DNA of 64,000 nt from Mycoplasmatales bacterium (GTDB taxonomy: Bacteria > Bacillota_I > Bacilli_A > CBDATW01): assembly GCA_965226165.1 (NCBI GenBank), contig OZ245334.1, positions 629,947-693,946 of the forward strand, written 5' to 3'. Position numbers and translations under genes: made by a program. Below, piece by piece: positions 5,232 through 56,572 of the stretch. Numbering within the stretch: position 1 is the first letter of the stretch; each line of letters begins with the position of its first letter. Below the pieces are notes generated by a model that was given only the letters and a program-made list of their open reading frames with translations, did not search any database and was not told the origin of the DNA.

Positions 5232-6368
5232 TCATTTTTGTAAAAAAGATGACTTTTCACAAATTGAACTAATCTCCTTTTTACCATTATTTTCTTTACT
5301 AGCCACCAAGATTTCACCATTAACATCTGGATTATATAAATATTTTTTAATTTTAACTTCTCTTAAAAAGTAACGAGGATCTAGTTTTTTTTCCTTTAGT
5401 TTTTTTAAGATGTCTTTTTTTAAATTATATGAATAATTATATGCTTTAAAAAATTGACGATTTCTAATTCCATATGCTAGTTCCTTAATTATGGGATCAG
5501 AGGTTTCACTTAGATTTTCAATAAACACACCAAAACTTTCATCATCAAATTTAATAAACTCTTTAATGGTGATTTTATTTTCTAAAAGTTTGCCAATTTT
5601 ATTTCAATGCTTTTGATATTGTGCATCATTTTTTAAATCTTTTAATCTTGCAAATAAAAGGGTGTACATTTCTTGATAAATAATTGTCGTGCGATGCAAA
5701 TAAATTGTTTTAAATGATTGAAAACGTGATCATAAAAATGATTCAATAGCTGGAATTGCTGATGATTTAAAAATTAATTTATTTTGATTTAAAATCATTG
5801 ATGAAATAATTTTGTTTTTGTCATGTTTTCCATATTGTGTCCCTGTATGGTGGGCATCACGAAGTAAATAATCCATTCGATCAACATCAACTGTTGATGA
5901 TAGAAGTGAACTTTTTAATGGGTGTTTTTGTGGAGAAAATAAATCAACTATATTTTGGGGATTAAAATTATTTTTAAGCAAAACTTTATTTACTTCAGAA
6001 TTTTTATCCAAAAGAATCTTTTTTCCCATTTCTTCATGATCTAATTTGTGATTAGAAATCACTTCTAAAGAATGGGACAAAGGCCCATGTCCTAAGTCAT
6101 GAAGTAATCCCGCAATAAAGATTTCATTTCATTCCTTTTCACTAAACTTATGGGTTAAGTTTTTTTGCTTTATTTCTGTTAAATTAGCATAAACCCCAAT
6201 TGAATGTTGAAATCTAGTGTGGTTTGCTCCAATAAAAACAAGAGAAGCTCCTCCTAATTGCTTAATTCTTCTTAATCTTTGAAATTCTTTTGTGTCAATT
6301 AATTCTAAAATAAATGGTGGCACATTCACTAATCCCAAAACTTCATCAATAATATTTTTCATTTTCAC
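5232..6368 (-). CDS. HD-domain phosphohydrolase (dNTP triphosphohydrolase-like)
   Basis: Three track ORFs (5232.., 5730.., 6129..) share one frame (1137 nt). Motifs seen: HTRFQHSIGV and DRMDYLLRDAHHTG. Confidence 0.75.
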
Positions 6369-13264: not shown

Positions 13265-14281
13265 TTATTTTAGTATTCATGAATAATTTATATTTTTTAT
13301 AAATCTTTCCATAAAATTAAAATCAATCTTATTGTTTTTTATAGGTAATTTAATTTTTGCTTGTTTTAGCCTATCTAAACTAATCTTTCTTCCATAACTA
13401 TATTTATTTTTTTCTAGCTCAAGCAATAATTTAAAAAATATTCCTATGAATATATTCAATTTGAAATCTTTTGGTTTTAAAACTTGGATATCTGCAGATG
13501 CAAGAAAATCATTGTTTTGAAAAAAAACTACACCTACTTTTCCGTTTCTTGTAATTGTTAATTTGTTTCCTTTTATAATATTTGTTTTTATTGATGTAGA
13601 AAAAGTTACACCATTATTAAATTCACTAGCAGAAATAAAAGGTGTTGAACCGGGAAAATCTTCAATTTCTTTTATTAAAAATGGTTTGTGTTTTTCAAAA
13701 ATAAATAGGTCTAAAATGCTAAATCATTTCCAATCTTTTGTGTTTAAATTTAATGGTTGTCTTTTAAATTTTTGTTTTTCTTTGTTGATGAAATTTAAAA
13801 TATATGAATATTTTAAGTTCTTTATAAATTCTTCCATAAAATTAAAGTTGATTTGATTATTCTTTACAGGCAATTTAATTTTTGTTTTTTTAATGTTCTT
13901 TAAATTAAATGCTCTATTATAACTATATTTTATTTTTTCTAAATCAATAATCATTTTGAAAAAAAGGCCTCTCCATAAATTAATGTGCAAAAATTTTTTA
14001 GGAATGAGTTTTGTGATATTGTTGCCAGTTATGTAATCTTTTGTTTGAAAAAAACAAGTTGCATTCTCGCCACCAATTGTTAACGTGTTTTTTTTGTTTA
14101 TAAAACTGTTTGGATAATTTGTTGATGTTTTTATGACACACCCATCATTATAATTTGATCTAGTAATGTAATTTAATTCTTTTCCAGGCTCAACATTACT
14201 TGCTTTGACATTTTTTGTTGTTTTAATATCAAACAAATCATTTAAATTAAATCATTTTCATTTACTTGTCTCTATTTTCAT
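13265..14281 (-). CDS. restriction-modification specificity subunit with two target-recognition domains (BcgIB/HsdS-like, 338 aa)
   Basis: Track ORFs 13724..14236 and 13277..13459 share a frame and are joined by hand translation. Each TRD is followed by the conserved block ..FFK..LE..KYSY.R......K.KLP.KNN.I.FNFME.FIKN..YS. Confidence 0.8.
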
Positions 14282-16049
14282 ATTCAAAAAAACTTTCTTT
14301 TTTTATTTCATCAATAATACCTTTTTTAAAAAGCTCAATAGCTTTATTCTTTATATAATCTCATTCTTCCATCTGTTCAAGTGCCTTATAATTTGTTTCA
14401 ATATAAGCACTTGGGTGTCATTCCATTTTGTAATCTACTTCTTGTAAAAAACTAAAACCTTCTTCATATTTTAAGTATTTTAAATTATATAGTCATTTTT
14501 CTATAATCTTAGTAGTTTTGTTTGTTTTCATTCTCCCTATATGCTTTAGTACTTTAAAACCATCATCATCATAATTGCCAAAATAAGTTTTACCTTTGTG
14601 TGGTGAATGGGCCTTGAATATTAAGATAATTGTTTCAACTCCAACATCTTTAAATAAATTTTTAGGCATTTTTAAACTTGCTAGTAAGGTGTGACTTTTC
14701 AATACTTTTTCTTTTTTTAAAATATATTCTTTTTTTGAATTAACTCCAACACTAGAAGAAACTATTGCAGCAACTTTACCCCCTACTTCTATTTGATCTA
14801 AAGTGTTTTTTATAAAATCTAATTGATCTTCAGGCCCTCCATCATATGGAGGATTTAACAAGCCGTGTGTTGGTTTTTTTAACATAATTTCATTTTTAAC
14901 TTGCTTTGAAAAACAATCTCCATTAATTAAATTGCTTTTGCCATCTCCATGAATTACCATATTTATTGCTACTGCTGTAAACATTGTGTTTCTTATTTCA
15001 ACACCTATAAGTTGAGTTTTTTTAATTTTGTCTTTTTCTTTAAAGTTAGTTGTGTTTGTTAGCATTTGATTCATAGCAGCGACTAAAAAAGCCCCTGTTC
15101 CACAACAAGGATCTAAAACAACACTGTTTTTATTAATTTCAATTGCTTCAACCATAAATTTTGCTATATGAGGCGGTGTTAAAACTAAGCCTTTTTTTTG
15201 ATCACCTCTTGCATATCTTATAAATTCATTGTAAAACTCTGCCAGAACATCAAAATAATTATTTTGAAAATATGGTTTTACTTCGTCATTAATTCTAATT
15301 AGAAAATCTTTTAAAATATTATTAGGTACTTCTTTTTCTTTATTTTTTTTATCAACTCTAGTTTCTTTAGTAAAAATTTTTTTTTCAATATTTTTTAAAC
15401 TTTTTAAAATTTCTTTAATATTTTTTTCTTCTATTTCACTTTTTTTTAATTGTTGCTTACAACTAGTTAATACATTTTCAACAAGTCCTTCATTATTTTG
15501 CGGAATATGATCTTTTAAAGTGTTTGCAAATGATTCTACTTGTAAAGAAAGGATAGCCGCGCTAATTAAAGATAACCTTTCGCTTTCATCAATAGAAAAA
15601 TTTTGCAAATAATTATTTATTTCTTTTGCTACCTTTTTTAATGATTTGATGTCTGGTTTAGGTAAAAAATAATTATTAATTTCTTTTTCAGAAGGCATTT
15701 CTTCAAATACAATTTTGTTTTGTATAATTGTTTTAGAAATGAAATTATTTTCTTGTCCTGCAATTGCAATTGCAACAATTTGATTATATTTAGAATTTAA
15801 GTGTTGGGAATAATTTTGAACTTCTTTTATTGCTTTTTGTATTTTTTTAGCTAAGTTTTTACATTCAATAACTATTATTCTATTAGGCTTATTTATAAAT
15901 TTAATTAAATAATCTGGCCTCCCTATATTGCCGGGTATATTTTTACTTGCTCCTTTGATTTTGGGATGCCTAAGAATTTCAATTTGATCTATTTTAAAAT
16001 TTTTTTTCAAGTAGTCTTCTACTATTTGTTCTGTATTTCTTTCATTCAT
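14262..16049 (-). CDS. fused PD-ExK endonuclease / gamma-class N6-adenine DNA methyltransferase (BcgIA-like type IIB R-M subunit, 595 aa)
   Basis: The N-terminus has GRPDYLIKF...RIIVIECK (PD..ExK). Methyltransferase motif I is VLDPCCGTGAFL and motif IV is LLNPPYDGG. The track ORF ends at a TGA. Read as Trp, it adds 76 more codons, and the extended ORF overlaps the S-gene start by 20 nt. Confidence 0.8.
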
Positions 16050-16073: not shown

Positions 16074-16104
16074 ATTATATATATATATATATATTGAATG
16101 TCAA
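16074..16104 (-). promoter_or_regulatory. sigma-70-type promoter of the R-M operon with a (TA)9 spacer
   Basis: On the minus strand: TTGACA (16099..16104), a 19-nt spacer made of ttcaa plus most of (TA)9, then TATAAT (16074..16079). This lies 24 nt upstream of the ATG at 16049. Confidence 0.55.
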
Positions 16105-16140
16105 TTTTAAATAAGTAGAATTTTTAAAATATCTATATTT

Positions 16141-16981
16141 TTAATTTTTTATTAATTTATTTTTTTCTTCAATGAAATAAAAAATTTCATCATTATATTT
16201 ATCGTCAGATAATATTTTCAAGTTCTTGTCACTTAATTTTTCTATTTTGTTTTTTGATATATTATGAAATTTATTATATCCTCTTATAACTTTTAAACAT
16301 TTTCAAATTCCTGGTTCTTCAAATGTAATATAATTTAATTCAAATAATTTATCATGTAAGATACACAAGACTAAACCATTGTTTGGGCTTGTTTTTTCTT
16401 TGCCCTCGCTTTTAGATCAAGGTAAAATGTGTGAAGCTATTAATAATCTCTTCTCTTCTTCTTTTCTCCCAATTCCACAAACTGCACATATTTTATGTTT
16501 ATCTTTCAGTCTTTTAGCTCATTTTGTGTGGTTTCTTCTTGTTTTTACATAACTTGAAACCCATCTACCTTCATCAACTGGCTTGTTGTCTTCATCATTT
16601 TTAAAGTTTTTTTCAGTTTCCTTGTTTATTTCTTCAAATGTTTTTTTAGAATCACTATTTCTTAAAGGATGTTTTTTTAAAAATTGTTTATACTTTAAAA
16701 CATTAATGTGTTGTTTGTAATTTTTAAATAACGTATATACCCCCCCCCTGATAATTAAATAAATAAATTCCTTTGTGTGATTTAATATTTCCTTTTTGTC
16801 TTTTTGAATAAATTAAGAGAACATTACAATCAACACTTCATTTTGGTGTTTTTGTTTTTAAATTTAATTGATTATATCTTTGAGATGCTTTTTGAATTAA
16901 AATATCTTTGGTCAATTGTTGTCTATTTTCTAAAATTTGAACAACATTAAAAACTTCTTTTGCTTTTATTAATTTTTTCAT
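16141..16981 (-). pseudogene. HNH (HNH_2-type) endonuclease, reading frame broken at a poly(G)9 tract (phase-OFF or pseudogene)
   Basis: The N-terminal 85 codons (MKKLIKAKEVFNVVQILENRQQL...) end just after the G9 run. The rest lies in the next frame and includes KICAVCGI...LLIASHILPWS...NNGLVLCILHDKLFE. Total length is 841 nt, so 8 or 11 G would restore the frame. Confidence 0.65.
16740..16748. repeat. homopolymeric C9 (G9 on the coding strand) tract
   Basis: The run is ...tatatac ccccccccc tgataatt. It is the only long G/C run I saw in this very AT-rich window. Confidence 0.8.
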
Positions 16982-16983
16982 TT

Positions 16984-17763
16984 TTAAATATTAAAAACCT
17001 TTCTTACATTTTTTAAAACTTGTTTAGTTATTTTTTTATTTCTTATTTCTTCAAGTTTATTATATGTGTGAACTATGTGGTGGGGGTAGTTTATTTTACC
17101 TCTAAAAGGTTCAGGAGTTAATAAAGGTCCATCTGTTTCACACAATAATCTATTTAAAGGAGTAATTTTTGCTGCTTCTTTTATATCTTCTACTTTCTTT
17201 TTAAAAGTAATAATTCCTGAAAATGATAAATAACAATTTAATGCTAAAAATGCTTTAGCTATTTTAGCATTATAAGTAAAACAATGAATTATTACTTTTG
17301 GAGGATTATATTGTTTAATAATATCTATAGTTTCTTGAGCAGCATTACGAGAATGAACTATTAATGTTAAGTTATATTTAATAGCTAACTCTACTTGTTT
17401 AATAAATCATTTAGTTTGAACTTCTTTACTAGGATTGTTTTCATAATAAAAATCTAATCCACATTCACCAATAGCTTTAATTTTATTTAAACCATCTTTT
17501 TTTTGATCATTAATAATTAGTTCTTCTAGTTTATTGATGTCTTCATCTTTCATTTTATTTACTTCTGATGGATGGACACCAATTGCTGCATACATAAAAT
17601 CATATTTATATGTTTGTTTAACTACTTCGCTAGCTTCAAAATGTGATGCTGAAACATTAATAATTCCAACCACATTAGCATCTTTTGCTTTTTGAATTAT
17701 TAAGTCATGATTTTCATCTTTATATTGTGAGTCATTTAAATGAAAGTGGGTGTCAAAATACAT
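16984..17763 (-). CDS. tatD: TatD-family metal-dependent DNase/hydrolase
   Basis: Starts MYFDTHFHLND.... Track ORF 17407..17763 extends in frame through TGA to the TAA at 16984 (780 nt). Confidence 0.85.
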
Positions 17764-35149: not shown

Positions 35150-35644
35150 TTAAAATAAATCAATAAAGGGATTTTCTATTTTCCTGTGTTTTAACAAATA
35201 TCGAAAGACCCGATTAGGGTTTATAGGTTTATTATAATACGTCTCAGGTAATTTAATTTTTTTTAATTTTTCATTTTTAAATAAATATGAATATGATTGA
35301 TTTTTGAAATTATAAATCTTTTCAATACAATCCAAATAACCATTTTTATTAAATGAAACATACCCATATTCAAATATTAGATCACACGATCCGCACAAAA
35401 TTAAAAAGTTATCCCAATCTCTCATTTCATATTTATTGCAAACACTATATTGCTTTATATGTGAAGCTCTTAAAAATTTTTTGTTAGAAAGACCACATAT
35501 CGCGCACTTCTTATGCAATTGTTTTAAATCATTAGCAGTTTTTGTGTGACCCTTTCTATAACTTGATAAATATTCTACTTTTTCTCCCAACTCTATTCTT
35601 CTTTTAGCTTCATTGCTTTCTTTATGAAACTTATATTTAATCAT
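35150..35644 (-). CDS. HNH (HNH_2-type) nuclease, third gene of the GHKL/Z1 operon
   Basis: Contains KCAICGLSNKKFLRASHIKQYS....WDNFLILCGSCDLIFEYGYVSF. Its start lies 21 nt after the Z1 stop. Confidence 0.7.
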   Translation of the reverse strand: MIKYKFHKESNEAKRRIELGEKVEYLSSYRKGHTKTANDLKQLHKKCAICGLSNKKFLRASHIKQYSVCNKYEMRDWDNFLILCGSCDLIFEYGYVSFNKNGYLDCIEKIYNFKNQSYSYLFKNEKLKKIKLPETYYNKPINPNRVFRYLLKHRKIENPFIDLF

Positions 35645-35665
35645 CTTTTCTTTGTCTCTAAAAGA

Positions 35666-37249
35666 TCATATTGTTTTATTTTGTATGATTTTTTGTTCCA
35701 CAAATTTTGCCTCATAATTTTTATTTTTATTTTTCAAACTATAATTATTTATTACATTTTCTATATTTGAAAATTCTTCTGTGTTTTTTGAAGAAACTTT
35801 ATCTATTAAATCATCTTTAATAATCCCAAACTTTTTATTTTTCAATAATTCTTCTGTTACTTTAATAATTTCATTTTCTTGCTTTTCTTTTTTTTTCAAA
35901 ATTTTGTCATTAAACAAATTTTTATATTTAGATTTATTCATATTGTAAAAATTAATAATTTCATCAATGTTGTTTCTTTCACAAACATTCTTTAATTCTT
36001 TATTTATTATTTTTATTTCTTTGTATTTCTTAATTAATTCTAATTCTAAATAAACATTTGGTTCTTCTTTTCTATAACCTAAAAATCTAGCATTTTGCAT
36101 TAATATATCATAATTAGTGTTTTTATTTTTTGAAATAATAATATCAGTTAATCCCTCAAATGTGTTTCCTCTAGAAAAGCAAAAACCTCCAATTAATATT
36201 TTCTTTTCGTTCTTTATAGTTTTAAAACTATTATGCTTGTCGTGCTTGTTTGAATTTATAATTAAAATATTGCTTTTTCTTAAATGCCATCATTTTGTTA
36301 ATTCTAATAACTGGTTTTTATTAATATTTAATGTTTCTTTATTTTTTTTTCTATTTGGAGTGTTATCATCTATGTATTTAACAAAAAAAAGCACTATCAA
36401 TTTTTTTATTTGCTTATGAAATTTTTGCTCAGTTTTTACATTTATCAAAAATTCATTGTCTTTTTTATTATCAAGTAGCCACTTAATCAAAACACTTATT
36501 ATTTTATTGCACTCTTTAATAGGCAATTGAATACCCAAATCTTCTATTTCTTTTTTAGAAAAAAATTCTTTTATTTGTATTTGGTTATAGTTGTCAAAAT
36601 TATGAAAACCCAAATATTTTTGGCCATATTCCAAAACACAAACCCCTTGTATATTTATATATTTTTGTGCATATTTAGAAAAAATATTTCAAAAAGGAGT
36701 TGCCGAAACACCAATATATTTTGAACCTTCATAATCAAACAAAGTGTTTAAGCCATAATCTATTAAATTATCTTTGCTTCAATAATCACATTCATCATCA
36801 AACACAACAATTTTTTTGTTTAATTCTTTAGCTTTTTTAACAATTCTTTTAAGGTCGTTTGTTTGTTTTTTTAAAAATATAATTTGTTTGTATTTCCTTC
36901 TATTAATAAAAATATCAATTTCCTCATTAATATAGCAATAGATATTATAATCATTATTATTGTAAGCTTTTTTAAATCTTGAAAATGTTTGATCATTCAG
37001 GGAATTTCTATCGCCTGTTAAAACAATTATTCATGAATAATTTTGTTCAAAAAATCAACCAGATAAATAAATCATATTGTTTGTTTTACCAGACTGGACA
37101 TCACCATATAAAACAATTCTGTTATTTTTATTAATTTCTTTTATAATTTTATTCAAATTTTTATCAAGAATTTTTTCAAAGTTTTCTTTTTGAATAGGAT
37201 CTTCAATTTTCTTTGATAGATTAAGCTTTAAGCTATTTAATATTTTCAT
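35666..37249 (-). CDS. Z1-domain P-loop/helicase-like protein (527 aa)
   Basis: Three track ORFs share one frame (1584 nt). Motifs: GDVQSGKTNN (Walker A), VFDDECDYW, GVSATPF, GGFCFSRGNTFEGLT and ARFLGYR (Z1 signature). Confidence 0.8.
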
Positions 37250-37262
37250 TTATTCAATTTTT

Positions 37263-39170
37263 TCATTCTTCTTCATTCTTGACTCTTTTACCTTCAAACA
37301 AAAGAACAATTATAAATGCAAGTACTGAGGCATTATAAAGTTTTTCTTTTCTATTTTCTGTTTGATCTTCATTGATTTCATCAAATGTAATATTTTTATG
37401 TGCATTAAATCTATATAATTTAACCTGTCTATCTCCAACTATATCTTTAAAATTTTTATTCAATTCATCTCTTTGTTCCTGACTAAAAGTTCCAGGGTTT
37501 TCTTCATAAAAAGTTTGTACAAACTTGTTTGGTTCATCAAAATTTTGTATTGTTAGGGTAGGCAAGGTTTCATCAATAAATTTTACACTTAATAAAATTG
37601 ACTTTTCTTCATCTTCATCAGCCATAGAAAAAAGTCATTCCTTAGGGGTTATATTAATTCTTGGAACCTCATTCATTTCACTTAAAGATCATTTTATTTT
37701 GCTATCATTAAAAAAAACTTTTGACCCATCATCATTTGAAAAATTGTCATTTCATTTTGTTAAATAAGCATTTGCAAAAAGAACAACATAATAAAGTTTC
37801 ATTTTTTTAAAAACTTCTTTATAAAAACAATCTTTTATTCTTTTAATTAATTCTTTGTCAAAATTTATTTTATTTTTTTCTGTCCTTATTTTATCATTTA
37901 TTGGTAAAATAATTTCTAAATCAAAATGTTCTAATTTTACTACCCCAGAACCACCCCTTTTTCCAACAAGGTTTTTAATTCACGATTTTTGAGGTATAGA
38001 TTTCTCCATAACATGAGGGCCCCTGTCATGTTGATATAATCTTATTCCTAAATTTTTCTTTCCCAAACTATTACTATTTTTTATTTCAATAGTTTTTCTT
38101 TTTGATGAAGAGTGTGGTATTCCAAATATTATTTTGAATGAATCTTCTTCATTCAAAAAACCATCTAAATCTGATATTCAATTAAAAGCTCATTTTAATT
38201 CTTCTCCTTTTTCAGAAGGAAGACTTAATAATTTTTTTCACATTAAGTTTAAATCATATTTTCTTCCATCAATTTGCCTTATATTATTGAATGTTGTATT
38301 ATCTTTTCACTCCAAAAATGATTCAAAAGTTTCAACAAATGATGTTTTTATCCAACCCACATTGTTCAAATATTCAAATTTTCTTTTAAGAATAGTTTCT
38401 CAATCTTCTTCATCACCAATTTTACAAAAAATATCAAGATTTTGTATAACAAAAAAATCTCTAGGAATCTTTTTTTCAATTATTCATTCATAATCAATAG
38501 TTTCAGTATTTTCAAATATATTTATTTTTATTTTTATTGCTTTGTTTGTTAAAAAATTTTTATAATACCTAATAGCCACAAAGTAACAAAATAATTGAAA
38601 ATTATCAATTTTAAAAATTTTATCTTTATCTTTTCTTTCATCATAAAAATCAAAAATTCTAATAAGCGTGCCTGTTGTTTCAAAATCACTTGTTATTCCT
38701 TTTATTTTTGAATGTTCAATTTCTCTAAACTTAATAATTCCTGAATAATCTTTCCATGTAGTGTCTGAATCATCTTTTGAATAATGAGCATTAACACACA
38801 ATGCCTTTTTAAAAATTTTGTTATTTTTATTAAAAGAAGAACTAAAAATTTGGCCTTGATATCCAAAAAATTGAATAGCATCTTTCATCCCCACATTATA
38901 TTCAGATTTAGTGTCTTTTAAGTTTTCTGAATATCTTGTTATTGCGGAATCTCATATTTCTTCCTTAATTCCTTCACCATTATCTTTTACTCATAAATGA
39001 TCTTCGTTTCAAAAAATTTCAATAATTAAATCTTTATTTTGTTGTTGATATTCTAAAGAATTGTCAATTAATTCACAAATAAAATATTTTCAAGGAATTT
39101 TACTTTTTTCTCCCTCGCTTCTCCATCTTGCTTTTTGATCAATTATAGCTTTATGCAGATCTCCTATCAT
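37263..39170 (-). CDS. GHKL-family (HATPase_c_3-like) ATPase (635 aa)
   Basis: The N-terminus MIGDLHKAIIDQKARW...FICELIDNSLEY...LWVKDNGEGI carries the Bergerat N and G1 boxes. I translated 37626..38483 codon by codon and found no TAA or TAG. Confidence 0.8.
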
Positions 39171-39491
39171 ACAAACCCCTTAAATATATTAATTATATCA
39201 ATACTATCACACCAGAATCTCCAACACAATATTTTTGAAAACATTTTCAATAATTTAAATAAAGTGTTAAAATAAAAATGTAGTTATGAGATAGAATTTA
39301 GTTATTAAATGTATATTAATAGTCATAGACTACATCAATTTAAAGTTTTAAATCTTTTTTTCAAATATTTTTTGTTATTAAGTTTTTATTTTTGTTTTTT
39401 CTTTTGAGAAGCTTTGAAGTTTTCATTTTTAGACTCCTTTTTTAAAAGTAAATGTTTTTGTTAATTTTAAATTAAAACTTAAATTGAACTC

Positions 39492-39525
39492 AAAAATAAC
39501 TTATTTTAATTAATAAGTTATTTTT
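39492..39525. repeat. perfect 14-bp-stem inverted repeat
   Basis: aaaaataacttatt / ttaatt / aataagttattttt, in the divergent spacer upstream of the GHKL operon. Confidence 0.6.
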
Positions 39526-39579
39526 TAATATATATAACTAAATTAAAGGGATTTTATATTAATGTATAATTAAGTTATT

Positions 39580-39795
39580 ATGAAGCGTCGACCTAGCGAT
39601 TATATTATTATTATATTTGTCATCATGTTTTTTGCAGTTGCTGCTTTTTACATCTTAGTTCCTTCTGGCCAAGATGGCATTTCTTTAATTGTGCAAAATA
39701 CAGTTAGAAGATATTTTTTTAATAATTTATGAGCTTGAATATTTGCTTTCTTTATTCTAGGAGGAATTATTTTAGTATCAATTCTTTTTTATTAA
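39580..39795 (+). CDS. hypothetical small membrane protein (71 aa)
   Basis: Translation: MKRRPSDYIIIIFVIMFFAVAAFYILVP...LWAWIFAFFILGGIILVSILFY. A TATAAT lies upstream. Confidence 0.3.
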
Positions 39796-39825
39796 AAAAG
39801 AAAAAGATAATGTTATAATTGCTTT

Positions 39826-39972
39826 ATGATTGGTCTTGGTGAAGTTTGAATTAGCTTTCTTGTATTTTGTTTTTTGGCCATTGTTTCCTGACCCTTTACT
39901 GAAAATACAATCATTACTATTTTAATTTCTTTTTTGTTAGCATCTTGATTCTTATTTTCTTCTGGAAAATAA
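39826..39972 (+). CDS. hypothetical small membrane protein (48 aa)
   Basis: Translation: MIGLGEVWISFLVFCFLAIVSWPFTENTIITILISFLLASWFLFSSGK. Weak call. Confidence 0.2.
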
Positions 39973-39979
39973 AAACAAT

Positions 39980-42138
39980 TTATTTTAAACCAACAATTTT
40001 TCTATATTGCATAATCTTGTGAAGAGGCATTTCTATCATAGGTGCTCATCTTAGATTGTTTATATGATTTACAAAATTAAGCCTATTATAAATATTTTTT
40101 CACTCTTCCTCTATTTCCAATTTTTCTTTTTCTATAATATTCATTAAGCCTTTAAATTTACCATTATTTCATTCATTTATTTTGTTTTCACTTAAACTCA
40201 ATATTACTTTTTTTTCAATTTGAAATCGTATTTGCATTGTCAACATATATTTATTTAAAACATAGTCAAAAAAACTTTCAATTTCATTTTTTGATTTATG
40301 TTTATAATTCAGAATGAAATCACTCACCGTTTTTTCCTTAATTGATTTATTTTTAAATAAAAAGTTCAAAGGACTATTGTTTTCTTGGAGCAAGTTAATT
40401 AGTTGCATAGGAGCGATTTCTTTAATTTCTTTTACAAGAACAAAGAACGACTTACTATTCGACCTTCAATGTCTATAGTTTTGGTCAATAAAATCTTTTA
40501 ATTTTTCTAAATCTTTTTTTTCTTCTTTGCTTTTTGCATTTAAAAAATAATTACTTGTAATTTCCCTCAATATTGTTGCAAACATCAATACAGTTTCTTT
40601 ACTACATTTGTCAAGGTTTTTGTCTTTCTTAAAATTAGTTGTCAACCATTTAGACATTTTTTTTAAAACATTAATATTAATTTCTTTTACAATAATGTCT
40701 GCTTGACTATATGAGTCCATAAAAAAGAATTTAGTATTATCATTATTTTTTGCAATTGCAAAATTACTTAACAAGTGATAATTATGAGTTAGTATTAAAA
40801 TGTTTTTGTTTTTATCAAAATTATTTATTATTTCAATAAAGATATTAATATTATCCAAATCCAAAGAGGAAACAGGATCATCAATTACTATGAAATCTTT
40901 TTCTTTTGCTTCAATTAAAGCAATTATTAAATACAAAATTTTTCTTTGCCCATTTGACCCGTACTCATTAAGTTCATCTTTTGAAATTGTTTTTGAATTA
41001 TTCTTATTTTCAAAAACAATATTAGTCTCTTCATAATAATTTTTAATTTCTTTAATCTTAATTGTTCACATTAAAGCATTTATTTTTAAACTTTCCTCAT
41101 TAATTTCTTTAGCAATTTCATTATAATTTTTAACAAAATTTTTATTTTCATTTATAATTTTTTTATGTTCAATTTGAAGCTGATCTTGATATTTTTTAAA
41201 TTCTCCTATTATAAGGCTATCCCACATTTCAATTAAAAAATTTTCTGCAATCTTTAATTCTGCTATTCCCCTCGTGGATAACTTTTCTATTTCCTTGTGA
41301 TTGCCTTTTAAATATCGCAACGCTAAATAAGCATCCCTATTAAGTTTACTAATTCCGTTTTCATTAAATTTTTCTTTAAGGTTCTCTTCAGCATTCTTTA
41401 TGTCGATTCAATGATTTTCATATTTATATTGAAAGTTTAGAGAACCAGACTCATTTATGTTTTTGATTAGTGGAAAATCTCTGTCAAGATTTTTGTTAAA
41501 ATATTTTCCAACCTTATCATCTAACTTGTTAAATTTTATCCTTTTATCAACCTTAGTAGCTTTTTTAATTGCATCTATTTTGTTTTTATATAATTTAATC
41601 TTATCAAAAAGATCTTTATCAATGTGCTTGGGGCTTTTTAGTAAAATTTTATTTTCAATATCCTTTATTTCCTCTATGTTTTTATTAGGATTATTAACTA
41701 TTTTTTTAATTATCTTAGATATTTCGCTTTGATTGTCAATTTCTTTATTATCAAAAAAAATTGAATACTTAATTTTTAACTCTTTAAAAACTTTTTCAAT
41801 AATTTTAAAATATCCTACATGTAAATCACTATTTATAGAAAATATTATTTTTTTGTTAACTTGATTTTTGATTAAATCACTATTTTCGCTATTTTTAATT
41901 TCATCAAGAAAATTTTCATCTATTATAAATATTTGATTACTTTTTATATCAATTTGAATAAAATCTTTATTAACCGTTCCTTCTAATGAAGTTTTAAAAA
42001 TTTTTTCTTTCAAACCTTTGAAACCTTTTGTTATGCTTGTTTTTCCAACCCCATTTGGTGCAAATATTATATTTTTTCACTTAAGTCAAAATTTATTTCA
42101 TCTTTTAGACCATAAAGATTTTTTATTTTCAATTTCAT
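39980..42138 (-). pseudogene. AAA_13/ABC-type (PrrC/RloC-like architecture) ATPase, N-terminal 23 codons out of frame at an A6 tract
   Basis: MKLKIKNLYGLKDEINFDLSEKI-stop is in one frame. NIIFAPNGVGKTS (Walker A) is in the next. Track ORFs 41408, 41066, 40466 and 40169 share that second frame through TGA. Signature and Walker B read GSNGQRKILYLIIAL...FIVIDDPVSSLD. The 3' end near 39980 was derived by hand. Confidence 0.6.
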
Positions 42139-42270
42139 TATAACTTCTTTTTTTTATTTCCAATCTTATGAATGCCCTTCTTAAATTATAAAAAAAATGT
42201 TTAAAAACTTCATTTAAAAATTGAAAATTTCTTAAAAATTTGTTTTAATTAATTAAGGAACGCTAGACTC

Positions 42271-42849
42271 ATGGAACGAAAATTAAAAGATATGATTTCT
42301 CAAGAAATGGTTTTATGAAGAGATCAATCAAGGAGACACAACTTTTCACCAAAAGGGTGAATAATATCAGAAATAGTAAAAAATTATTATAAAGATTTTT
42401 TCAAAAATAAAGAAGAGTTTAATATTAAAGAATTTTGTAAAAAGTTAGAATTAGAAGTAGAAAAAATAGATTTAAATTTTAACAGTCTAGACAAAAATAT
42501 TTGAGGAATGCTGGATCGAAAAAACAAAAAAATTTATATTTCTGAACATTTGAAAAATGAACAAACCATAAGATTTACAATAGCACATGAATTAGCTCAT
42601 TTTTTAATAGACCAAAATGAAACCAATGATATATATTATAGAGATAGAATTAATATTGGTAAAGAAGTAATATATAATGATTTTGCTGCAAGTTTTTTAG
42701 TTGATATCAAACAAATTCAAGATTATATAGACAATAAAAAATTAACTTTTCGAGAATTATCAAAAAATTATAAAGTTCATTATGAAACAATCGGCATTTT
42801 AATTGACCAAGAGTTAAGAAAAAGAAAAAAAATAAATCAAATTAAGTAA
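42271..42849 (+). CDS. ImmA/IrrE-family (COG2856-like) zinc metallopeptidase, no HTH domain (192 aa)
   Basis: Contains ..KKIYISEHLKNEQTIRFTIAHELAHFLIDQ (HEXXH). The ATG at 42271 is in frame with track ORF 42508 through three TGA codons. Confidence 0.75.
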
Positions 42850-42851
42850 TT

Positions 42852-43421
42852 ATGGCATTATCTAAGAAAGAATTAAACAAAATTAAAGAATTAGAAGATG
42901 AAATAAAAAGACTTGATTGAAGATTAAGAAGACAAGAGAAAATTTTATATGATAAAAATACTGAAATTAATGAATATCTTTCTAAATATAACTCATTTCA
43001 ACAAAAAATTGAATCAGAATTTACTATTCTTAAAAACTCTAAAGAAATTGAATCGAAATTTCTATATGAAAACTCAAGATCAAATTTGCACACAATTACT
43101 ATTTTTTCATTTATTTTAATTCTGTCATTAACTATTTTGAATTCTATAATAATAAACAGGCTTGATAAATTTCAAATTAAAATTAAAGATGGAAAAGAAA
43201 TTATTGAAAAAACATATGATGGAAATGCAATAAATACAATAATTTCATTTTCATATGCATATGCTCTTCTTGGTTTTTTCACAATCTTCATTGTTTCAAA
43301 GCTATTTGATAGCTTGTGAAAATTTAAAGACAAAAAAATTTTAACAACAATAACCATAATATTTGTGAATTTATCAATAATTTGAATAGCAATTTTGTTA
43401 TATTTACTTTTTATTAAATAA
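42852..43421 (+). CDS. coiled-coil plus three-TM membrane protein (189 aa)
   Basis: It starts 3 nt after the peptidase stop. MALSKKELNKIKELEDEIKRLDWRLRRQEKILYD... is followed by three hydrophobic helices (ITIFSFILILSLTILNSIII, ISFSYAYALLGFFTIFIV, IIFVNLSIIWIAILLYLLFI). Confidence 0.55.
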
Positions 43422-43523
43422 AAATTAAATTTCTATAATAAATAATACAAAAAACATAATATAATAAAAAATATTTATATTTAATATATATTTTTAGTAT
43501 AATATTTACAAATGAGGTGTAAA

Positions 43524-44819
43524 ATGAATAAAAATAACAAAGCAAACAAAATAATTTCTTTGAAAGCAAAAAATGTTTTTTCGTTTTATGATGAAACGAA
43601 AATATCTTTTTTGGGAAAGACAAGAAAAAAAGATAAAAAAAGTTTTTATCAATTTTTAAACAAAAAAAATCAAGTGAACATTTCTAACATAAATGGTATT
43701 TTTGGAATTAATTCATCAGGTAAAACAAACCTAATAGTTAAAACAATTCAAAAACTTAAAAACATAATAAAATCAAAAAGTGTTGAAAAAGAGTTGTTAG
43801 ATGTACCCTTTTTTAATTCGAGTAATAAAGAATCAACCATAGCTTTAGAATTTCTAACATCAGCAAAATTTTATTATTTTGAAATCAAATTTAAAAATAA
43901 CAAAATCACACATGAAAAACTTTCTTTTAAAGAAAAAAAAGTTAATAAATACCAAAATATTTACAAAGTAGAAAATAATAAGTTTTATTTAAAAAACAAA
44001 TTTATTAACAAAATAGAATTAAAAGATGAAACAATAATTGGCAATACAAGTTTATTTAATATGTTTTTGTATAAAGAAAAGATTGAAGCATCAACAAAAA
44101 GAAAACATATTGAATTAGTAAAAGACTTTGTTATAAATAAAATTCATTTATTAACGCCAGAAACAATTAGTTTTGAAGAAACATTATCAAAACTAGCAAA
44201 TAAATCTTATGTATTTCAAAAATTTAATAACATCGCTAAAGAAATAAATTTAGGTTTTGAAAAAATTGAATGCGAATTAAATGAGGTTATAACTAAGGAT
44301 TTTAAAATGGAGCAAAAAGAAAATGGTTTTTCTTTCTTTTCTGCAAAAGACAAAGTCGTTAAAAAAATTTCTCCTAAATTTTATAGATCAATAGATACTG
44401 ATAAATACGAATTAATTCCTAAACTTGCAAACACCTTATCTAGTGGAACTATTCAATTTATTGAAACTATAGTATTTTTACTAGATGCTGTTGAAAGCAA
44501 TCATATTTTAATTTGAGATGAATTTGGCAGTTTTCTTGATGATGAATTAATAGAAGCTATATTTGAAATCATTGCTAATAATGACTCAGTACAATTAATT
44601 TTTAATTCTAATAAAAAATCAATTATTTCAAAGCTAGATTGAAACCAAATTTTTATTGTTAAGTTAAATAGGCATTGAGAATCTAGTTTAATAGAAAGAA
44701 ACTATTCAAGAATTCAACAAGTGGAAATAGAAAAGAAATATCGAAACAATTACTTTGGCAATCTTAATAATTTTAATGTGATAAGTATTCTCAAACATTT
44801 TGATAAAGCATTTGGTTAG
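43524..44819 (+). CDS. soluble ABC-type ATPase (AAA_15/AAA_21-like, 431 aa)
   Basis: GAGGTG RBS and an upstream TATAAT. Motifs: GINSSGKTN (Walker A), LSSGTIQF (signature) and HILIWDEFGSFLD (Walker B, after a TGA). Confidence 0.8.
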
Positions 44820-53644: not shown

Positions 53645-54594
53645 TGATTCAAAAAATTATTAATAAAAAAATTGCTAATTTAAATCAAAAATTTATCATC
53701 GGGGTTTCTGGTGGAGTTGATTCAATGGTTTTATTAGATGTTGTTAATAAACTTCATCCTGATTTATTAGTTGTTTGTCATGTTAATTACAATCTTCGTA
53801 AAAACTCTAATAAAGAAATGTTAATGGTCAAAAGGTTTTGTTTAAAAAATACTATTCCTTTTCATGTTTTGAGTGTTAAAAAAAAGTTAAAGTCAAACAT
53901 TCAGGAGCAAGCGAGAATTATTCGATTTAATTTTTTTAATAAAATTGCTAATAAATATAAAATAAAAAATATTTTAATAGGTCATAATTTTGAAGATCAT
54001 CTTGAAACTTATTTATTGCAAAAGAAGCGCAATATTATTACGCCTTTTTGAGGCATTAAAGATGTCTCGCTATGACAGAATTTAACAATAATTCGCCCAA
54101 TGTTAAAGATTTTTAAAAAACAAATTTATGATTATGCTAAAAATTATAAGGTTGATTTTATTGAGGATTTATCTAATCAAAAAAAGTTTTATAAAAGGAA
54201 TGAAATTCGTATAGATAAAATTCAAAATCTTTCTTTATTTCAAAAAAAAATAATGGCTTTTAAAATTTCTTTAAAAAACCTAAAAAATAAACAACTATTT
54301 AAAAAAATTGCTATAATGAAAAAGGAAATAATAGTTAGAAATAAGTTTCATAAATCAATATTTAAGCACAAATACAAACATATTTTTATCACTCTTTATT
54401 ATTTTTTAAAGGACTTATCTTATCCAGTAAAAAGAATAAATAAAAAGATTATTAATGAAATTATTTCGTTTCATAAAAAATCAATTCATAATAAAGTTAA
54501 ATTAAAAATGTGTCAAGATTTTTACCTCCAAAAAGATGGGGATTGATACAAACTATTGAAGGGGACAGATTATGAGTCAAAAAATGCCTAATAA
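53644..54594 (+). CDS. tilS: tRNA(Ile)-lysidine synthase
   Basis: Contains IGVSGGVDSMVL (PP-loop). Fragments 53644.. and 54100.. are in frame. It overlaps the ftsH start. Confidence 0.8.
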
Positions 54595-56572
54595 CAAACA
54601 AATAAATAAAAATGTTAGAAAAAATTCAATTTTTCCATTTCTTTTTATGGCCATCTTAATTTCTTCAATAGTTTTTTTGTTTAGGAATCCTTTAACTAAA
54701 ATTCATACTAACACTGAATTTCAAAAAATTTTAGTTGATGATAGTTACCAATTTGAAAGCGTTAATATTTTTCCTTCAGAAAAAACAATGCAAGTTAAAG
54801 GGATTTATTATAAAGATGATAAAAAGTATGAGTTTGAAACCATTTATCCCAATACTGAGAAAAATTATAACTATATAGTTGAAACAATTAATCAAAAAAT
54901 TAAAGATCCTACAAAAGGATTAACAATTGTTAAACCATCTAACTTTTCAATTTGGAATTTACTTTGAAATATTCTTATTTTTGTAGTTCCATTTATGTTA
55001 ATCTTTTGACTACTTTCTAAATCAGGCCCAAGCAAGGGAATAGAATTTGGAAAATCAAGAGCTAAATTAAACAAATTAAACACTATCACCTTTAAAGATG
55101 TGGCAGGAGCAAAAGAAGAAAAAGAAGAACTTAGTGAAATTGTTGATTTCTTAAAAAAACCTAACGAATATGTTTCACTAGGAGCAAGAGTTCCTAAGGG
55201 GGTAATTTTAGTTGGGCCACCTGGAACTGGTAAAACTTTACTTGCAAAAGCAGTTGCTGGGGAAGCCAAGGTGCCTTTTTACACAATTTCTGGTTCTGAT
55301 TTTATTGAAATGTTTGTTGGGGTTGGTGCCTCAAGAGTAAGAAGTATGTTTAAGGAAGCCAAAAAAAATGCCCCTTGCATCATTTTTATTGATGAAATTG
55401 ATGCAGTAGGAAGAAATCGTGGACCTGGTTCAATGGGGGGACATGATGAAAGAGAACAAACCCTTAATCAGTTACTAGTAGAAATGGATGGGTTTGGTAC
55501 TAATGCAGGAATTATTATAATCGCCGCTACTAACCGTGAAGATGTTTTAGATAAGGCCTTGCTTCGTCCTGGAAGATTTGATCGTCGCATTTCAGTTCAT
55601 TTACCAGATGTTTATGCCCGAATTGAAATTTTAAAAGTTCATGCTCGTAATAAAAAATATGCTAAGGGAATTGATTTTGAAAAATTAGCATATCGAACAC
55701 CTGGATTTACTGGAGCTCAACTGGAAAATGTTTTAAATGAAGCAACCCTTCTTTCAATTCGAGATGACAGTAAAAAAGTAACAATGCTTCATCTTGATGA
55801 GGCAGTTGATCGAGTAATTGGTGGACCAGCCAAATATTCAAAAAAGAAAAATGCTGAAGAACGAAAACTAGTTGCCTTCCATGAAGCGGGTCATGCTGTC
55901 ATTGGGTTAAAATTAGCAGATGCAGAAATTGTGCAAAAAGTAACAATTATTCCTCGTGGGGCAGCTGGTGGTTATGTTTTGATGACTCCAAAAAAAGAAT
56001 CATTTATTTTAACTAAAACCCAAATGTTTCATAAAATTGTTTCATATATGGGGGGGAGGGTTTCTGAAAAACTTCATTTTGGAAAAGAAAATATTACAAC
56101 AGGATCATCTGATGATATGAAAAAAGCAACAAGTTTAGCAAGAGCAATGGTAACGCGCTTTGGAATGTCTGATGAAATTGGTCCAATTTCTCTTGAACCA
56201 AGCAACCAAAATGCTTTTGGACCTTCGTCAATACTTAATCCAGCCAAAGAATATGGAGAACAAGTTAATTCTCAAATTGATAGTGAAATTAAAAAAATTA
56301 TTCTTAATGCTGAGAAAAAAGCTCATGAAATTATTAGTAAACATTTACCAAAAGTGAAACTTATTGCTGAAATGTTACTTAAGCATGAAACTTTAACAGC
56401 AGAAATGATTGAAAACATTGATAAATATAATGATGTATCAAAACCAATTGAAAAAAAAGAAGATAAAAAAGAAAAAGTAAAAAAAGAAGAAAAACAAAAG
56501 GATTTAAAACCAAAAGAAAAAACTAAGAAATCTTTAAAACAAGAGTCACTAGATTTTAATAATAAAAAATAA
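54572..56572 (+). CDS. ftsH: ATP-dependent zinc metalloprotease FtsH
   Basis: Contains [13 protein letters not shown] and HEAGHA. Both fragments share one frame (2001 nt). It has a K/E-rich tail. Confidence 0.95.

What the first reader, a model, noticed from the sequence alone, without database searches (positions are those of the whole stretch)
16141..16981. HNH nuclease gene gated by a poly(C)9 tract
A 9-nt G/C homopolymer is striking in DNA this AT-rich. It sits exactly where the reading frame of a ~280-codon HNH_2 nuclease breaks: G9 is OFF, and G8 or G11 would be ON. The gene begins 2 nt after tatD and lies next to the R-M operon. Two neighbouring restriction functions may therefore each have their own slipped-strand switch.
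Basis: seen in the sequence. Interest (0 to 1): 0.65.

Follow-up and report, generated by a model that had tools for sequence, protein, structure and literature searches.

The report
Frameshifted HNH nuclease gene at poly-G tract
A restriction-type HNH nuclease gene in an uncultured mycoplasma-like bacterium is switched off by one extra G in a run of nine; this looks like a slippage on/off switch of a known kind, but no length variation was seen at this tract, only at a TA repeat in the neighbouring R-M promoter.

Summary
C9 (16740-16748; G9 on the gene strand) is the only G/C run longer than 7 in 64 kb of 25 % GC, TGA=Trp DNA. It sits exactly where an otherwise intact 279-codon gene (16981->16141, minus strand) changes frame. 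G8 or G11 restores it.

The downstream frame is a Pfam HNH_2 nuclease. Its closest solved relatives are modification-dependent (Type IV) enzymes, VcaM4I and TagI. The N-terminal ~100 aa remain unassigned.

A conspecific strain (L001) has an intact 287-aa allele at the same place after tatD, without a G tract. That strain has a G10 tract breaking an EcoRI-like methylase gene in the same island.

Contigs of four runs (three samples) all carry C9, so I think assembly error unlikely. This also means no length variation was seen here; minority variants are invisible in contigs.

The same contigs differ from each other over 4.1 kb only by one TA unit. That unit lies in a (TA)n repeat in the spacer of a perfect TTGACA/TATAAT promoter before the adjacent M+S genes (spacer 17 vs 19).

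Verdict: a plausible contingency locus, currently OFF. It is a new member of a known kind; a freshly dead pseudogene is not excluded.

The parts
16141..16981 (-). Frameshifted stand-alone HNH_2 nuclease gene (279 aa if G8, 280 aa if G11)
   Evidence: Table-4 translation in three frames and in-silico G8/G11 repair. Pfam HNH_2 E=1.1e-10, 41.6 bits against a cutoff of 21. Intact 287-aa allele P0003 at the syntenic place in strain L001.
16740..16748 (-). G9 tract (C9 on the + strand). In G8 form it reads CAG GGG GGG GTA = Q78-G79-G80-V81
   Evidence: It uses rare codons: CAG is 8 % of Gln and GGG 15 % of Gly in the window's long ORFs. The G8 form aligns without a gap to homologues that have NNNK or NNNN at this place.
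16724..16981 (-). OFF-state ORF: 85 aa, made of N-terminal domain residues 1-80 plus GIYVI and a stop
   Evidence: The same 85-aa product is on record as P0157, from a single contig of 753,368 bp.
16318..16488 (-). HNH_2 catalytic core (residues 165-221 of the read-through protein; CxxC ... ASHILPW ... NNG ... HD motif)
   Evidence: Pfam envelope and codon coordinates. Sequence match to VcaM4I 6YEX, E=1.5e-8. Foldseek of the P0003 model finds VcaM4I at E=6e-6 and TagI at E=0.1. 24 of 27 columns conserved at 90 % or more are kept, including all 16 invariant ones.
16984..17763 (-). tatD (259 aa), the upstream gene; its stop lies 2 nt before the HNH start
   Evidence: Pfam TatD_DNase E=2e-71. 90.7 % nt identity to L001 tatD.
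16074..16104 (-). Promoter of the M+S operon: TTGACA (16104-16099), 19-nt spacer holding the (TA) repeat, TATAAT (16079-16074). The M start codon is at 16049
   Evidence: It is the only perfect TTGACA-N15-21-TATAAT in the window. The spacer is 17 nt in runs X1 and X3 and 19 nt in X2, X4 and the window.
16076..16094 (.). (TA)9.5 repeat, polymorphic between samples (one unit fewer in X1 and X3)
   Evidence: TRF: period 2, 9.5 copies, 100 % matches. The 2-nt deletion at 16076 is the only difference in 4116 nt between the runs' contigs.
14262..16049 (-). 595-aa N6-adenine methyltransferase (HsdM-like) with an N-terminal extension carrying a PD...ExK-like motif (weak HSDR_N match)
   Evidence: Pfam N6_Mtase E=7e-25 and HSDR_N E=0.003, below its cutoff. 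PDB HsdM proteins, E=2e-16.
13265..14287 (-). 340-aa specificity subunit with two target-recognition domains; overlaps the M gene by 26 nt
   Evidence: Pfam Methylase_S E=9.5e-36, two stretches.

Best explanation
The gene encodes a small stand-alone restriction-type nuclease. It has an N-terminal domain of about 100 aa, probably DNA-binding, joined by a linker to a C-terminal HNH_2 (beta-beta-alpha-Me) nuclease of the kind used by modification-dependent Type IV enzymes. It lies in a strain-variable defence island next to oriC in an uncultured mollicute with a genome of about 0.75 Mb.

Its reading frame passes through a G tract. With 8 Gs (or 11) the frame is continuous. The present 9 Gs, one slippage step from 8, end translation five codons later and leave only an 85-aa stub.

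Long G runs gain and lose units by slipped-strand mispairing at high rates, and mollicutes lack mismatch repair (background knowledge). The gene should therefore flip between OFF and ON in a minority of cells, so it would act as a contingency locus. The population sampled is OFF.

Shown here: the tract, the frame arithmetic, the intactness of the rest of the gene, the family of the nuclease, the synteny, and a really polymorphic second repeat next door.

Inferred: that the tract actually varies, that variation is selected rather than mere decay, and that the enzyme targets modified DNA.
For: 1. The tract coincides with the frame break, and G8 or G11 restores 279 or 280 aa.
2. It is the only G/C run of 8 or more in 64 kb, against 0.06 C8 matches expected. 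It is built from rare codons; given the residues Q-G-G, the chance of this encoding is about 0.08 x 0.15 x 0.15 = 0.002.
3. The G8 form aligns gap-free to homologues, so the present state is a single +1 slip.
4. All 16 invariant and 24 of 27 near-invariant family positions are intact, and 194 codons are open in 25 % GC DNA.
5. The assembly has no general homopolymer problem. Of 67 long runs, only this one coincides with a frame break. Four runs agree on C9.
6. The conspecific strain L001 carries a G10 tract exactly at the frame break of an EcoRI-like methylase in the same island. Its ON lengths are also 8 and 11.
7. The adjacent M+S promoter has a (TA)n spacer whose length differs between samples of an otherwise identical 4.1-kb sequence.
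8. There is precedent: poly(G)6-11 tracts in the M. agalactiae CpG methylase genes were shown to be phase variable by fragment-length analysis (PMC9465063).
Against: - No tract-length variant was seen. Consensus contigs of four runs from three samples are all C9, and no indel variant unitig was reported at min_share 1. Over the same material the TA repeat did change.
- No ON (G8 or G11) copy of this allele exists in the protein collection, the GTDB genomes or the JGI metagenomes searched.
- Both poly-G genes known in this species are OFF, which also fits decay.
- The G tract is not conserved in other alleles; L001 has AAT AAT AAT AAA there. There is thus no evidence that the tract is long-lived.
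Confidence: 0.55

Rival explanations
1. Plain pseudogene. A nuclease gene that happened to contain a G8 run suffered a +1 slip and is now dead and drifting. Reversion is possible in principle but is not used or selected.
For: The C9 consensus is invariant in 4 runs from 3 samples, while the neighbouring TA repeat changed. No ON copy was found anywhere. The second poly-G gene of the species (L001 methylase) is also out of frame. The island turns over fast: the alleles are 41 % identical between strains whose flanks are 96-98 % identical, and gene loss is expected in such a region.
Against: There is no second lesion. 194 downstream codons are open and all invariant catalytic positions are kept. 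The tract is made of rare codons and is unique in the window. R-M genes of this species show recurrent poly-G at frame breaks with the same ON lengths. An inactivation this recent cannot be told apart from an OFF phase.
Confidence: 0.3
2. Sequencing or assembly artefact. The true tract would be G8 or G11 and the gene would be intact.
For: Homopolymers of 9-10 are the classic indel-error site of long-read platforms. The related ENA contigs have long-read-style names and about 12x coverage. The platform of runs X1-X4 is not on record. The four runs may all come from the platform used for the window, so they would not be independent of a systematic bias.
Against: K-mer contigs of four runs from three samples give C9 at word depth 6-13, with no alternative. 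66 other long homopolymers, including a G7 in ftsH and 64 A/T runs of 8-9, cause no frame break. Word depth close to the stated coverage argues for low-error reads.
Confidence: 0.07
3. Recoding. The G9 allele is the functional form, and full-length protein is made by +1 ribosomal frameshifting or by transcriptional slippage on the G run, giving constitutive low-level nuclease.
For: On GGG_GGG_GGU the P-site tRNA-Gly can re-pair perfectly in the +1 frame, and the product would equal the G8 protein (sequence). Low expression of a toxic nuclease would be advantageous. This is inference.
Against: Homologues (P0003, P0009, P0001) are single ORFs without any tract or frameshift. No stimulatory element is present: there is no stop or rare codon directly after the slip site, and the stop lies five codons later. 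No RNA data exist to test it.
Confidence: 0.05

Closest known systems
Poly(G)-gated CpG methyltransferase genes of Mycoplasma agalactiae, with poly(GA) in the Type III mod genes (PMC9465063)
   Same: A mollicute host; a G tract of 6-11 in the middle of an R-M gene, just upstream of the catalytic domain; most strains are out of frame; ON/OFF by +/-1-2 G.
   Different: There the gated gene is a methyltransferase, and phase variation was measured by fragment-length analysis. Here the gated gene is a stand-alone nuclease, and no length variation has been observed.
Reader-HNH Type IV (modification-dependent) restriction endonucleases: VcaM4I (EVE-HNH, PDB 6YEX), TagI (SRA-HNH, 6GHS), and the wH-HNH enzymes of 224-283 aa such as SruGXI (PMC7897488, PMC6765204, PMC11037411)
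   Same: A C-terminal HNH_2 nuclease, with sequence E=1.5e-8 and fold E=6e-6 to VcaM4I. The size (279 aa) and the two-domain layout with an N-terminal non-catalytic domain also match. An N6-adenine methylase lies nearby, a co-occurrence reported for wH-HNH enzymes.
   Different: The N-terminal domain has no Pfam or PDB match, and the AF2 model is of low confidence there (pLDDT below 50). A three-helix plus beta-hairpin layout is only suggested. Modification dependence is untested. None of the characterised enzymes is reported to be gated by a repeat.
Poly-G/C contingency loci in R-M genes of Campylobacter, Helicobacter and Neisseria (PMC8355987, PMC3936762, PMC4209511)
   Same: An intragenic G/C homopolymer of 8-11 whose length sets the reading frame of a restriction or modification gene.
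   Different: Those are Gram-negative pathogens with many such tracts per genome and measured switching. Here the organism is an uncultured mollicute, with one tract in 64 kb and a second in a sister strain.
Promoter-spacer dinucleotide switches, e.g. (TA)n between -35 and -10 of the Haemophilus influenzae hif fimbrial promoters (from my own knowledge, not checked here)
   Same: This applies to the neighbouring M+S operon. A (TA)n repeat fills the -35/-10 spacer, and one unit changes the spacer from 17 to 19 nt. Length variants were observed between samples.
   Different: It controls an R-M operon rather than fimbriae. The effect on transcription was not measured.

Membership tests
Pfam HNH_2 (PF13391) nucleases | Profile match above the curated gathering score | tested here: met
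   41.6 bits against a cutoff of 21, E=1.1e-10, residues 165-221, full profile 1-66.
Pfam HNH_2 (PF13391) nucleases | Conserved CxxC / ASHI-PW / NG / HD-LF catalytic and metal-binding positions | tested here: met
   All 16 columns invariant in 43 relatives are kept. 24 of 27 columns conserved at 90 % or more are kept. The three changes are D->E, S->T and S->L.
Type IV modification-dependent restriction endonucleases (reader domain + HNH) | Nuclease domain homologous to that of characterised members | tested here: met
   phmmer against PDB: VcaM4I 6YEX, E=1.5e-8. Foldseek: VcaM4I E=6e-6, TagI E=0.1. The weak NCBIfam PT-DNA_restrict hit covers the HNH part only.
Type IV modification-dependent restriction endonucleases (reader domain + HNH) | N-terminal modification-sensor domain (PUA/EVE/SRA, winged helix, SBD) | tested here: inconclusive
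   No Pfam hit at E<=10. No credible PDB profile hit. The AF2 model of P0003 has pLDDT 30-52 over residues 1-130; it shows three helices followed by beta strands, which is compatible with a winged helix but not reliable.
Type IV modification-dependent restriction endonucleases (reader domain + HNH) | Cleaves only modified DNA; needs no cognate methylase | not testable with these tools
   This needs expression of the G8 form in hosts with and without defined methylation. The orthologous position in L001 has no adjacent M+S pair, so the nuclease is not an obligate partner of that system.
Simple-sequence-repeat contingency locus (phase-variable gene) | Hypermutable repeat inside the ORF, whose length sets the frame of an otherwise intact gene | tested here: met
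Simple-sequence-repeat contingency locus (phase-variable gene) | Repeat length differs between isolates or samples | tested here: not met
   C9 is the consensus in X1-X4, which come from three samples. No other copy of this allele was found. Only one clone was sampled: 0 SNPs in 4.1 kb.
Simple-sequence-repeat contingency locus (phase-variable gene) | Minority length variants within a population, above sequencing error | not testable with these tools
   Only Logan contigs are kept for these runs, and they drop rare variants. No raw reads were available.
Promoter-spacer repeat switch (neighbouring M+S operon) | Repeat between the -35 and -10 hexamers, and length polymorphism | tested here: met
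   TTGACA-19-TATAAT with (TA)9.5 in the spacer. One unit is missing in X1 and X3, giving a 17-nt spacer. The effect on expression was not tested.
Programmed frameshift / transcriptional slippage gene | Frameshift site conserved among homologues, with a stimulatory element | tested here: not met
   The homologues are uninterrupted ORFs with no tract at this position.

The most novel reading that the evidence does not exclude
The HNH enzyme is an N6-methyladenine-dependent Type IV nuclease that conflicts with adenine methylases in its own island. The repeats form a paired toggle: a G tract in the nuclease or the methylase, and (TA)n in the R-M promoter. The toggle would let a clonal population hold mutually exclusive defence states, either modification-dependent restriction ON with the methylase OFF, or the reverse.

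Two strains hint at this. L001 has the HNH intact and its EcoRI-like methylase broken at G10. The window strain has the HNH broken at G9 and its M+S genes intact behind a variable promoter. With two different methylases and only two strains (n=2), this is only a hint.
Probability: 0.12. Interest if true: 0.7.

Novelty: new member of a known kind. Interest (0 to 1): 0.42.

Why it matters
If the tract switches, this would be a phase-variable stand-alone HNH (probably Type IV) restriction nuclease in a minimal-genome bacterium. It would sit beside an R-M operon with its own, demonstrably polymorphic, promoter repeat.

That would show that even a genome of about 0.75 Mb diversifies its defence repertoire stochastically within a clone. 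It would also offer a compact natural system for studying how modification-dependent and modification-blocked restriction coexist.

In practice, the gene should be annotated as a phase-OFF or frameshifted gene rather than as two hypothetical ORFs. The locus also marks a hypervariable defence island next to oriC in this lineage.

Tried and rejected
Searches for other copies of the allele, to compare tract lengths:
- The search for related loci in GTDB genomes and JGI metagenomes found nothing.
- A gapped DNA pattern around the tract found nothing in GTDB genomes.
- A GyrB scan for taxonomic placement found nothing. tatD gave only 40-41 % hits to rumen Mycoplasmataceae/Malacoplasma MAGs.

- No RNA runs exist, so slippage in transcripts could not be examined.

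N-terminal domain:
- Pfam at E<=10, a PDB profile search and AF2 gave no usable assignment.
- A profile search of the N-terminal domain in the 5.8-billion-protein set returned only the window's own 85-aa stub.

One technical point: the first read-laying run did not show the long covering contigs. Later calls on other sub-ranges did, and I rely on those.

Rejected idea: that the HNH is the missing R subunit of the adjacent M+S pair. The L001 orthologue stands without that pair, and the M protein has its own PD-ExK-like N-terminus.

Full report
**Observation.** The + strand carries C9 at 16740-16748. The window is 25.2 % GC, and this is its only G/C run longer than 7. A C8 pattern is expected 0.06 times in dinucleotide-preserving shuffles, and 1 of 100 shuffles reached the observed count. 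The genome reads TGA as Trp: tatD, gyrB and other genes are whole only under table 4, and long ORFs hold 178 TGA against 46 TGG. All translations below therefore use table 4.

**Gene anatomy.** The gene lies on the minus strand.
- Its ATG at 16981 follows the tatD stop (16984-16986) by 2 nt.
- The zero frame reads ...N-Y-Q-G-G-G-I-Y-V-I-stop, which is 85 aa, ending at 16724-16726.
- The frame reached by removing one G is open from the tract to the stop at 16141-16143.
- G8 gives 279 aa, G11 gives 280 aa, and G9 or G10 are out of frame.
- In the HNH frame, the first canonical start codon after the tract is a TTG beyond the catalytic His. No useful truncated nuclease can therefore be made, and OFF is truly off.

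**What the protein is.**
- Residues 165-221 match Pfam HNH_2 (PF13391) at 41.6 bits against a cutoff of 21.
- The nearest solved sequence is VcaM4I (6YEX), at E=1.5e-8 over the nuclease domain.
- I modelled the intact allele P0003 with AF2. The model is confident only over the HNH part (pLDDT 81-88). Foldseek of it finds VcaM4I (E=6e-6) and then TagI (E=0.1). Both are modification-dependent restriction enzymes (PMC7897488, PMC6765204).
- An exhaustive profile search finds 6434 HNH_2 relatives but only two at E<=1e-30.
- Among 43 of the top hits, all carry HNH_2. Their N-terminal regions differ: 5 have DUF7225, 2 EVE, 1 a DNA methylase domain, 1 AbiGii, and the rest are unannotated.

**The N-terminal domain.**
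- The first ~100 residues of the window protein are shared only with P0003 and P0009, and more loosely with P0001 and P0013.
- They have no Pfam or PDB match.
- They are modelled with low confidence, as three helices followed by beta strands.
- A winged-helix reader, as in the 224-283-aa wH-HNH Type IV enzymes (PMC11037411), is therefore a lead and not a result.
- In the alignment the tract residues Q-G-G lie between two short hydrophobic segments, where homologues have NNNK or NNNN. I read this as a hairpin turn that tolerates variation, but that is an inference.

**Context.**
- The window covers the oriC region: rpmH, rnpA, yidC, dnaA, dnaN, gyrB and gyrA.
- P0003 comes from a 716-kb ENA contig (locus L001). 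Its flanking blocks are 98.3 % and 96.1 % identical in DNA to the window and are in the same gene order. Its tatD is 90.7 % identical, which I take to mean the same species.
- The gene after tatD, however, is only 41 % identical in protein. The surrounding island also differs. L001 has a GmrSD_N-HNH gene and an EcoRI-like methylase between yidC and tatD. The window has an M+S pair after the HNH gene.
- The exchange boundary lies right after the tatD stop. L001 keeps a vestigial ATG-GTA-TAA there, and then its own AAGGAG-led start.
- The L001-type sequence is also present in runs X1-X3. A 2704-nt contig shows exactly L001's mismatch counts and its 675-nt spacing. The two strains therefore co-occur.

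**Is the tract real, and does it vary?**
- Contigs of X1, X2 and X3 (4128, 4130 and 4128 nt; word depth 13.4, 11.3 and 11.3) and of X4 (741 nt; depth 6.4) cover the tract with no difference.
- Of 67 long homopolymers in the window, only this one coincides with a frame break. Coding density is 0.90 and the core genes are intact.
- Assembly error is therefore unlikely, although a platform-wide bias cannot be excluded because the platform is not on record.
- The same data give no sign of variation at the tract. Contigs report only the majority, so within-population variation remains untested.

**The neighbouring switch.** The HNH stop and the M start are 91 nt apart.
- On the gene strand this gap holds TTGACA (16104-16099), a 19-nt spacer filled by (TA)9.5, and TATAAT (16079-16074). 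The ATG follows 24 nt later.
- This is the only perfect -35/-10 pair in the window.
- Over 4116 nt, the contigs of X1 and X3 differ from those of X2 and X4 and from the window by exactly one TA unit and nothing else. The spacer is therefore 17 nt in samples S1 and S3 and 19 nt in S2.
- This is direct evidence for repeat-length change in this clone. I infer that it alters transcription of the R-M operon.
- The M protein is an HsdM-like N6-adenine methylase (N6_Mtase E=7e-25; PDB HsdM E=2e-16). It has an N-terminal PD...ExK-like motif (HSDR_N, E=0.003, below its cutoff). The S protein has two target-recognition domains.

**A second poly-G gene in the species.** In L001, a G10 tract (5602-5611) lies exactly where the EcoRI-like methylase splits into two ORFs. 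G8 or G11 gives a single ORF of 321 or 322 aa with an NPPF motif. The homologous position in P0002 is also Gly-Gly.

**Mechanism and rivals.**
- My best reading is a contingency locus caught in the OFF phase, one +1 slip away from the gap-free G8 form (confidence 0.55). In its favour:
  - the tract is unique, and it is made of rare codons (CAG is 8 % of Gln, GGG is 15 % of Gly);
  - the rest of the gene is undamaged, with 16 of 16 invariant positions kept;
  - the species has a second poly-G tract at a frame break in an R-M gene;
  - the repeat next door really varies;
  - mollicute precedent exists (PMC9465063).
- Against it stands the invariant C9 consensus and the absence of any ON copy.
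- A freshly dead pseudogene (0.30) explains the same facts without selection.
- An artefact (0.07) and recoding (0.05) are less likely, for the reasons given under the rivals.

**Comparison and novelty.** Intragenic poly-G gating of R-M genes is well known in Campylobacter, Helicobacter and Neisseria, and in Mycoplasma methylases. Gating of a stand-alone HNH_2, probably Type IV, nuclease is a new member of that kind and not a new kind.

The more novel possibility is that nuclease and methylases form an antagonistic pair of repeat-controlled states. It rests on two strains with reciprocal ON/OFF patterns, and on literature reports of frameshifted methylases next to some winged-helix fusion endonucleases (PD-(D/E)XK-wH; PMC11037411). 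I give it about 0.12.

Noticed in passing
window 16074-16104 (repeat 16076-16094): A (TA)9.5 repeat fills the spacer of a perfect TTGACA/TATAAT promoter before the M+S operon. Runs X1 and X3 have one unit fewer (spacer 17) than X2, X4 and the window (spacer 19). This is the only difference in 4.1 kb.
   Followed up: yes
L001 5351-6318 (tract 5602-5611): The conspecific strain has a G10 tract at the frame break of an EcoRI-like N6-adenine methylase with an NPPF motif. G8 or G11 would restore a 321- or 322-aa ORF.
   Followed up: partly
window 16141-17010 vs L001 7930-8864: The HNH_2 alleles of two strains are 41 % identical in protein, although the flanks are 96-98 % identical in DNA. The exchange boundary lies directly after the tatD stop, where L001 keeps a vestigial ATG-GTA-TAA. 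tatD itself drops to 90.7 % identity.
   Followed up: partly
runs X1-X3 laid on window 16100-17100: A second, L001-type strain co-occurs in the same samples at similar depth. A 2704-nt contig and a 238-nt variant contig show L001's exact mismatch pattern.
   Followed up: partly
window 35150-44819: This is a second defence-like island. It holds a 699-aa ResIII/Z1 protein with its own C-terminal HNH_2 domain, a HATPase_c_3 protein, two AAA_21 (AbiEii-like) ATPases and a Peptidase_M78 protein. It resembles the context of P0001 in L002.
   Followed up: partly
P0002 (458 aa, 12.9-kb ENA contig): P0002 is a natural fusion of an EcoRI-methylase-like N-terminal region to the same HNH_2 C-terminal module. 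Its motif reads NPTF instead of NPPF. The nuclease module is thus combined with a methylase-like domain in some relatives.
   Followed up: no
window 56050-56056 and 55435-55440: G7 and G6 runs lie in frame inside the 678-aa ORF at 54536-56572, which I take to be ftsH. They would serve as internal controls for homopolymer sequencing error.
   Followed up: no
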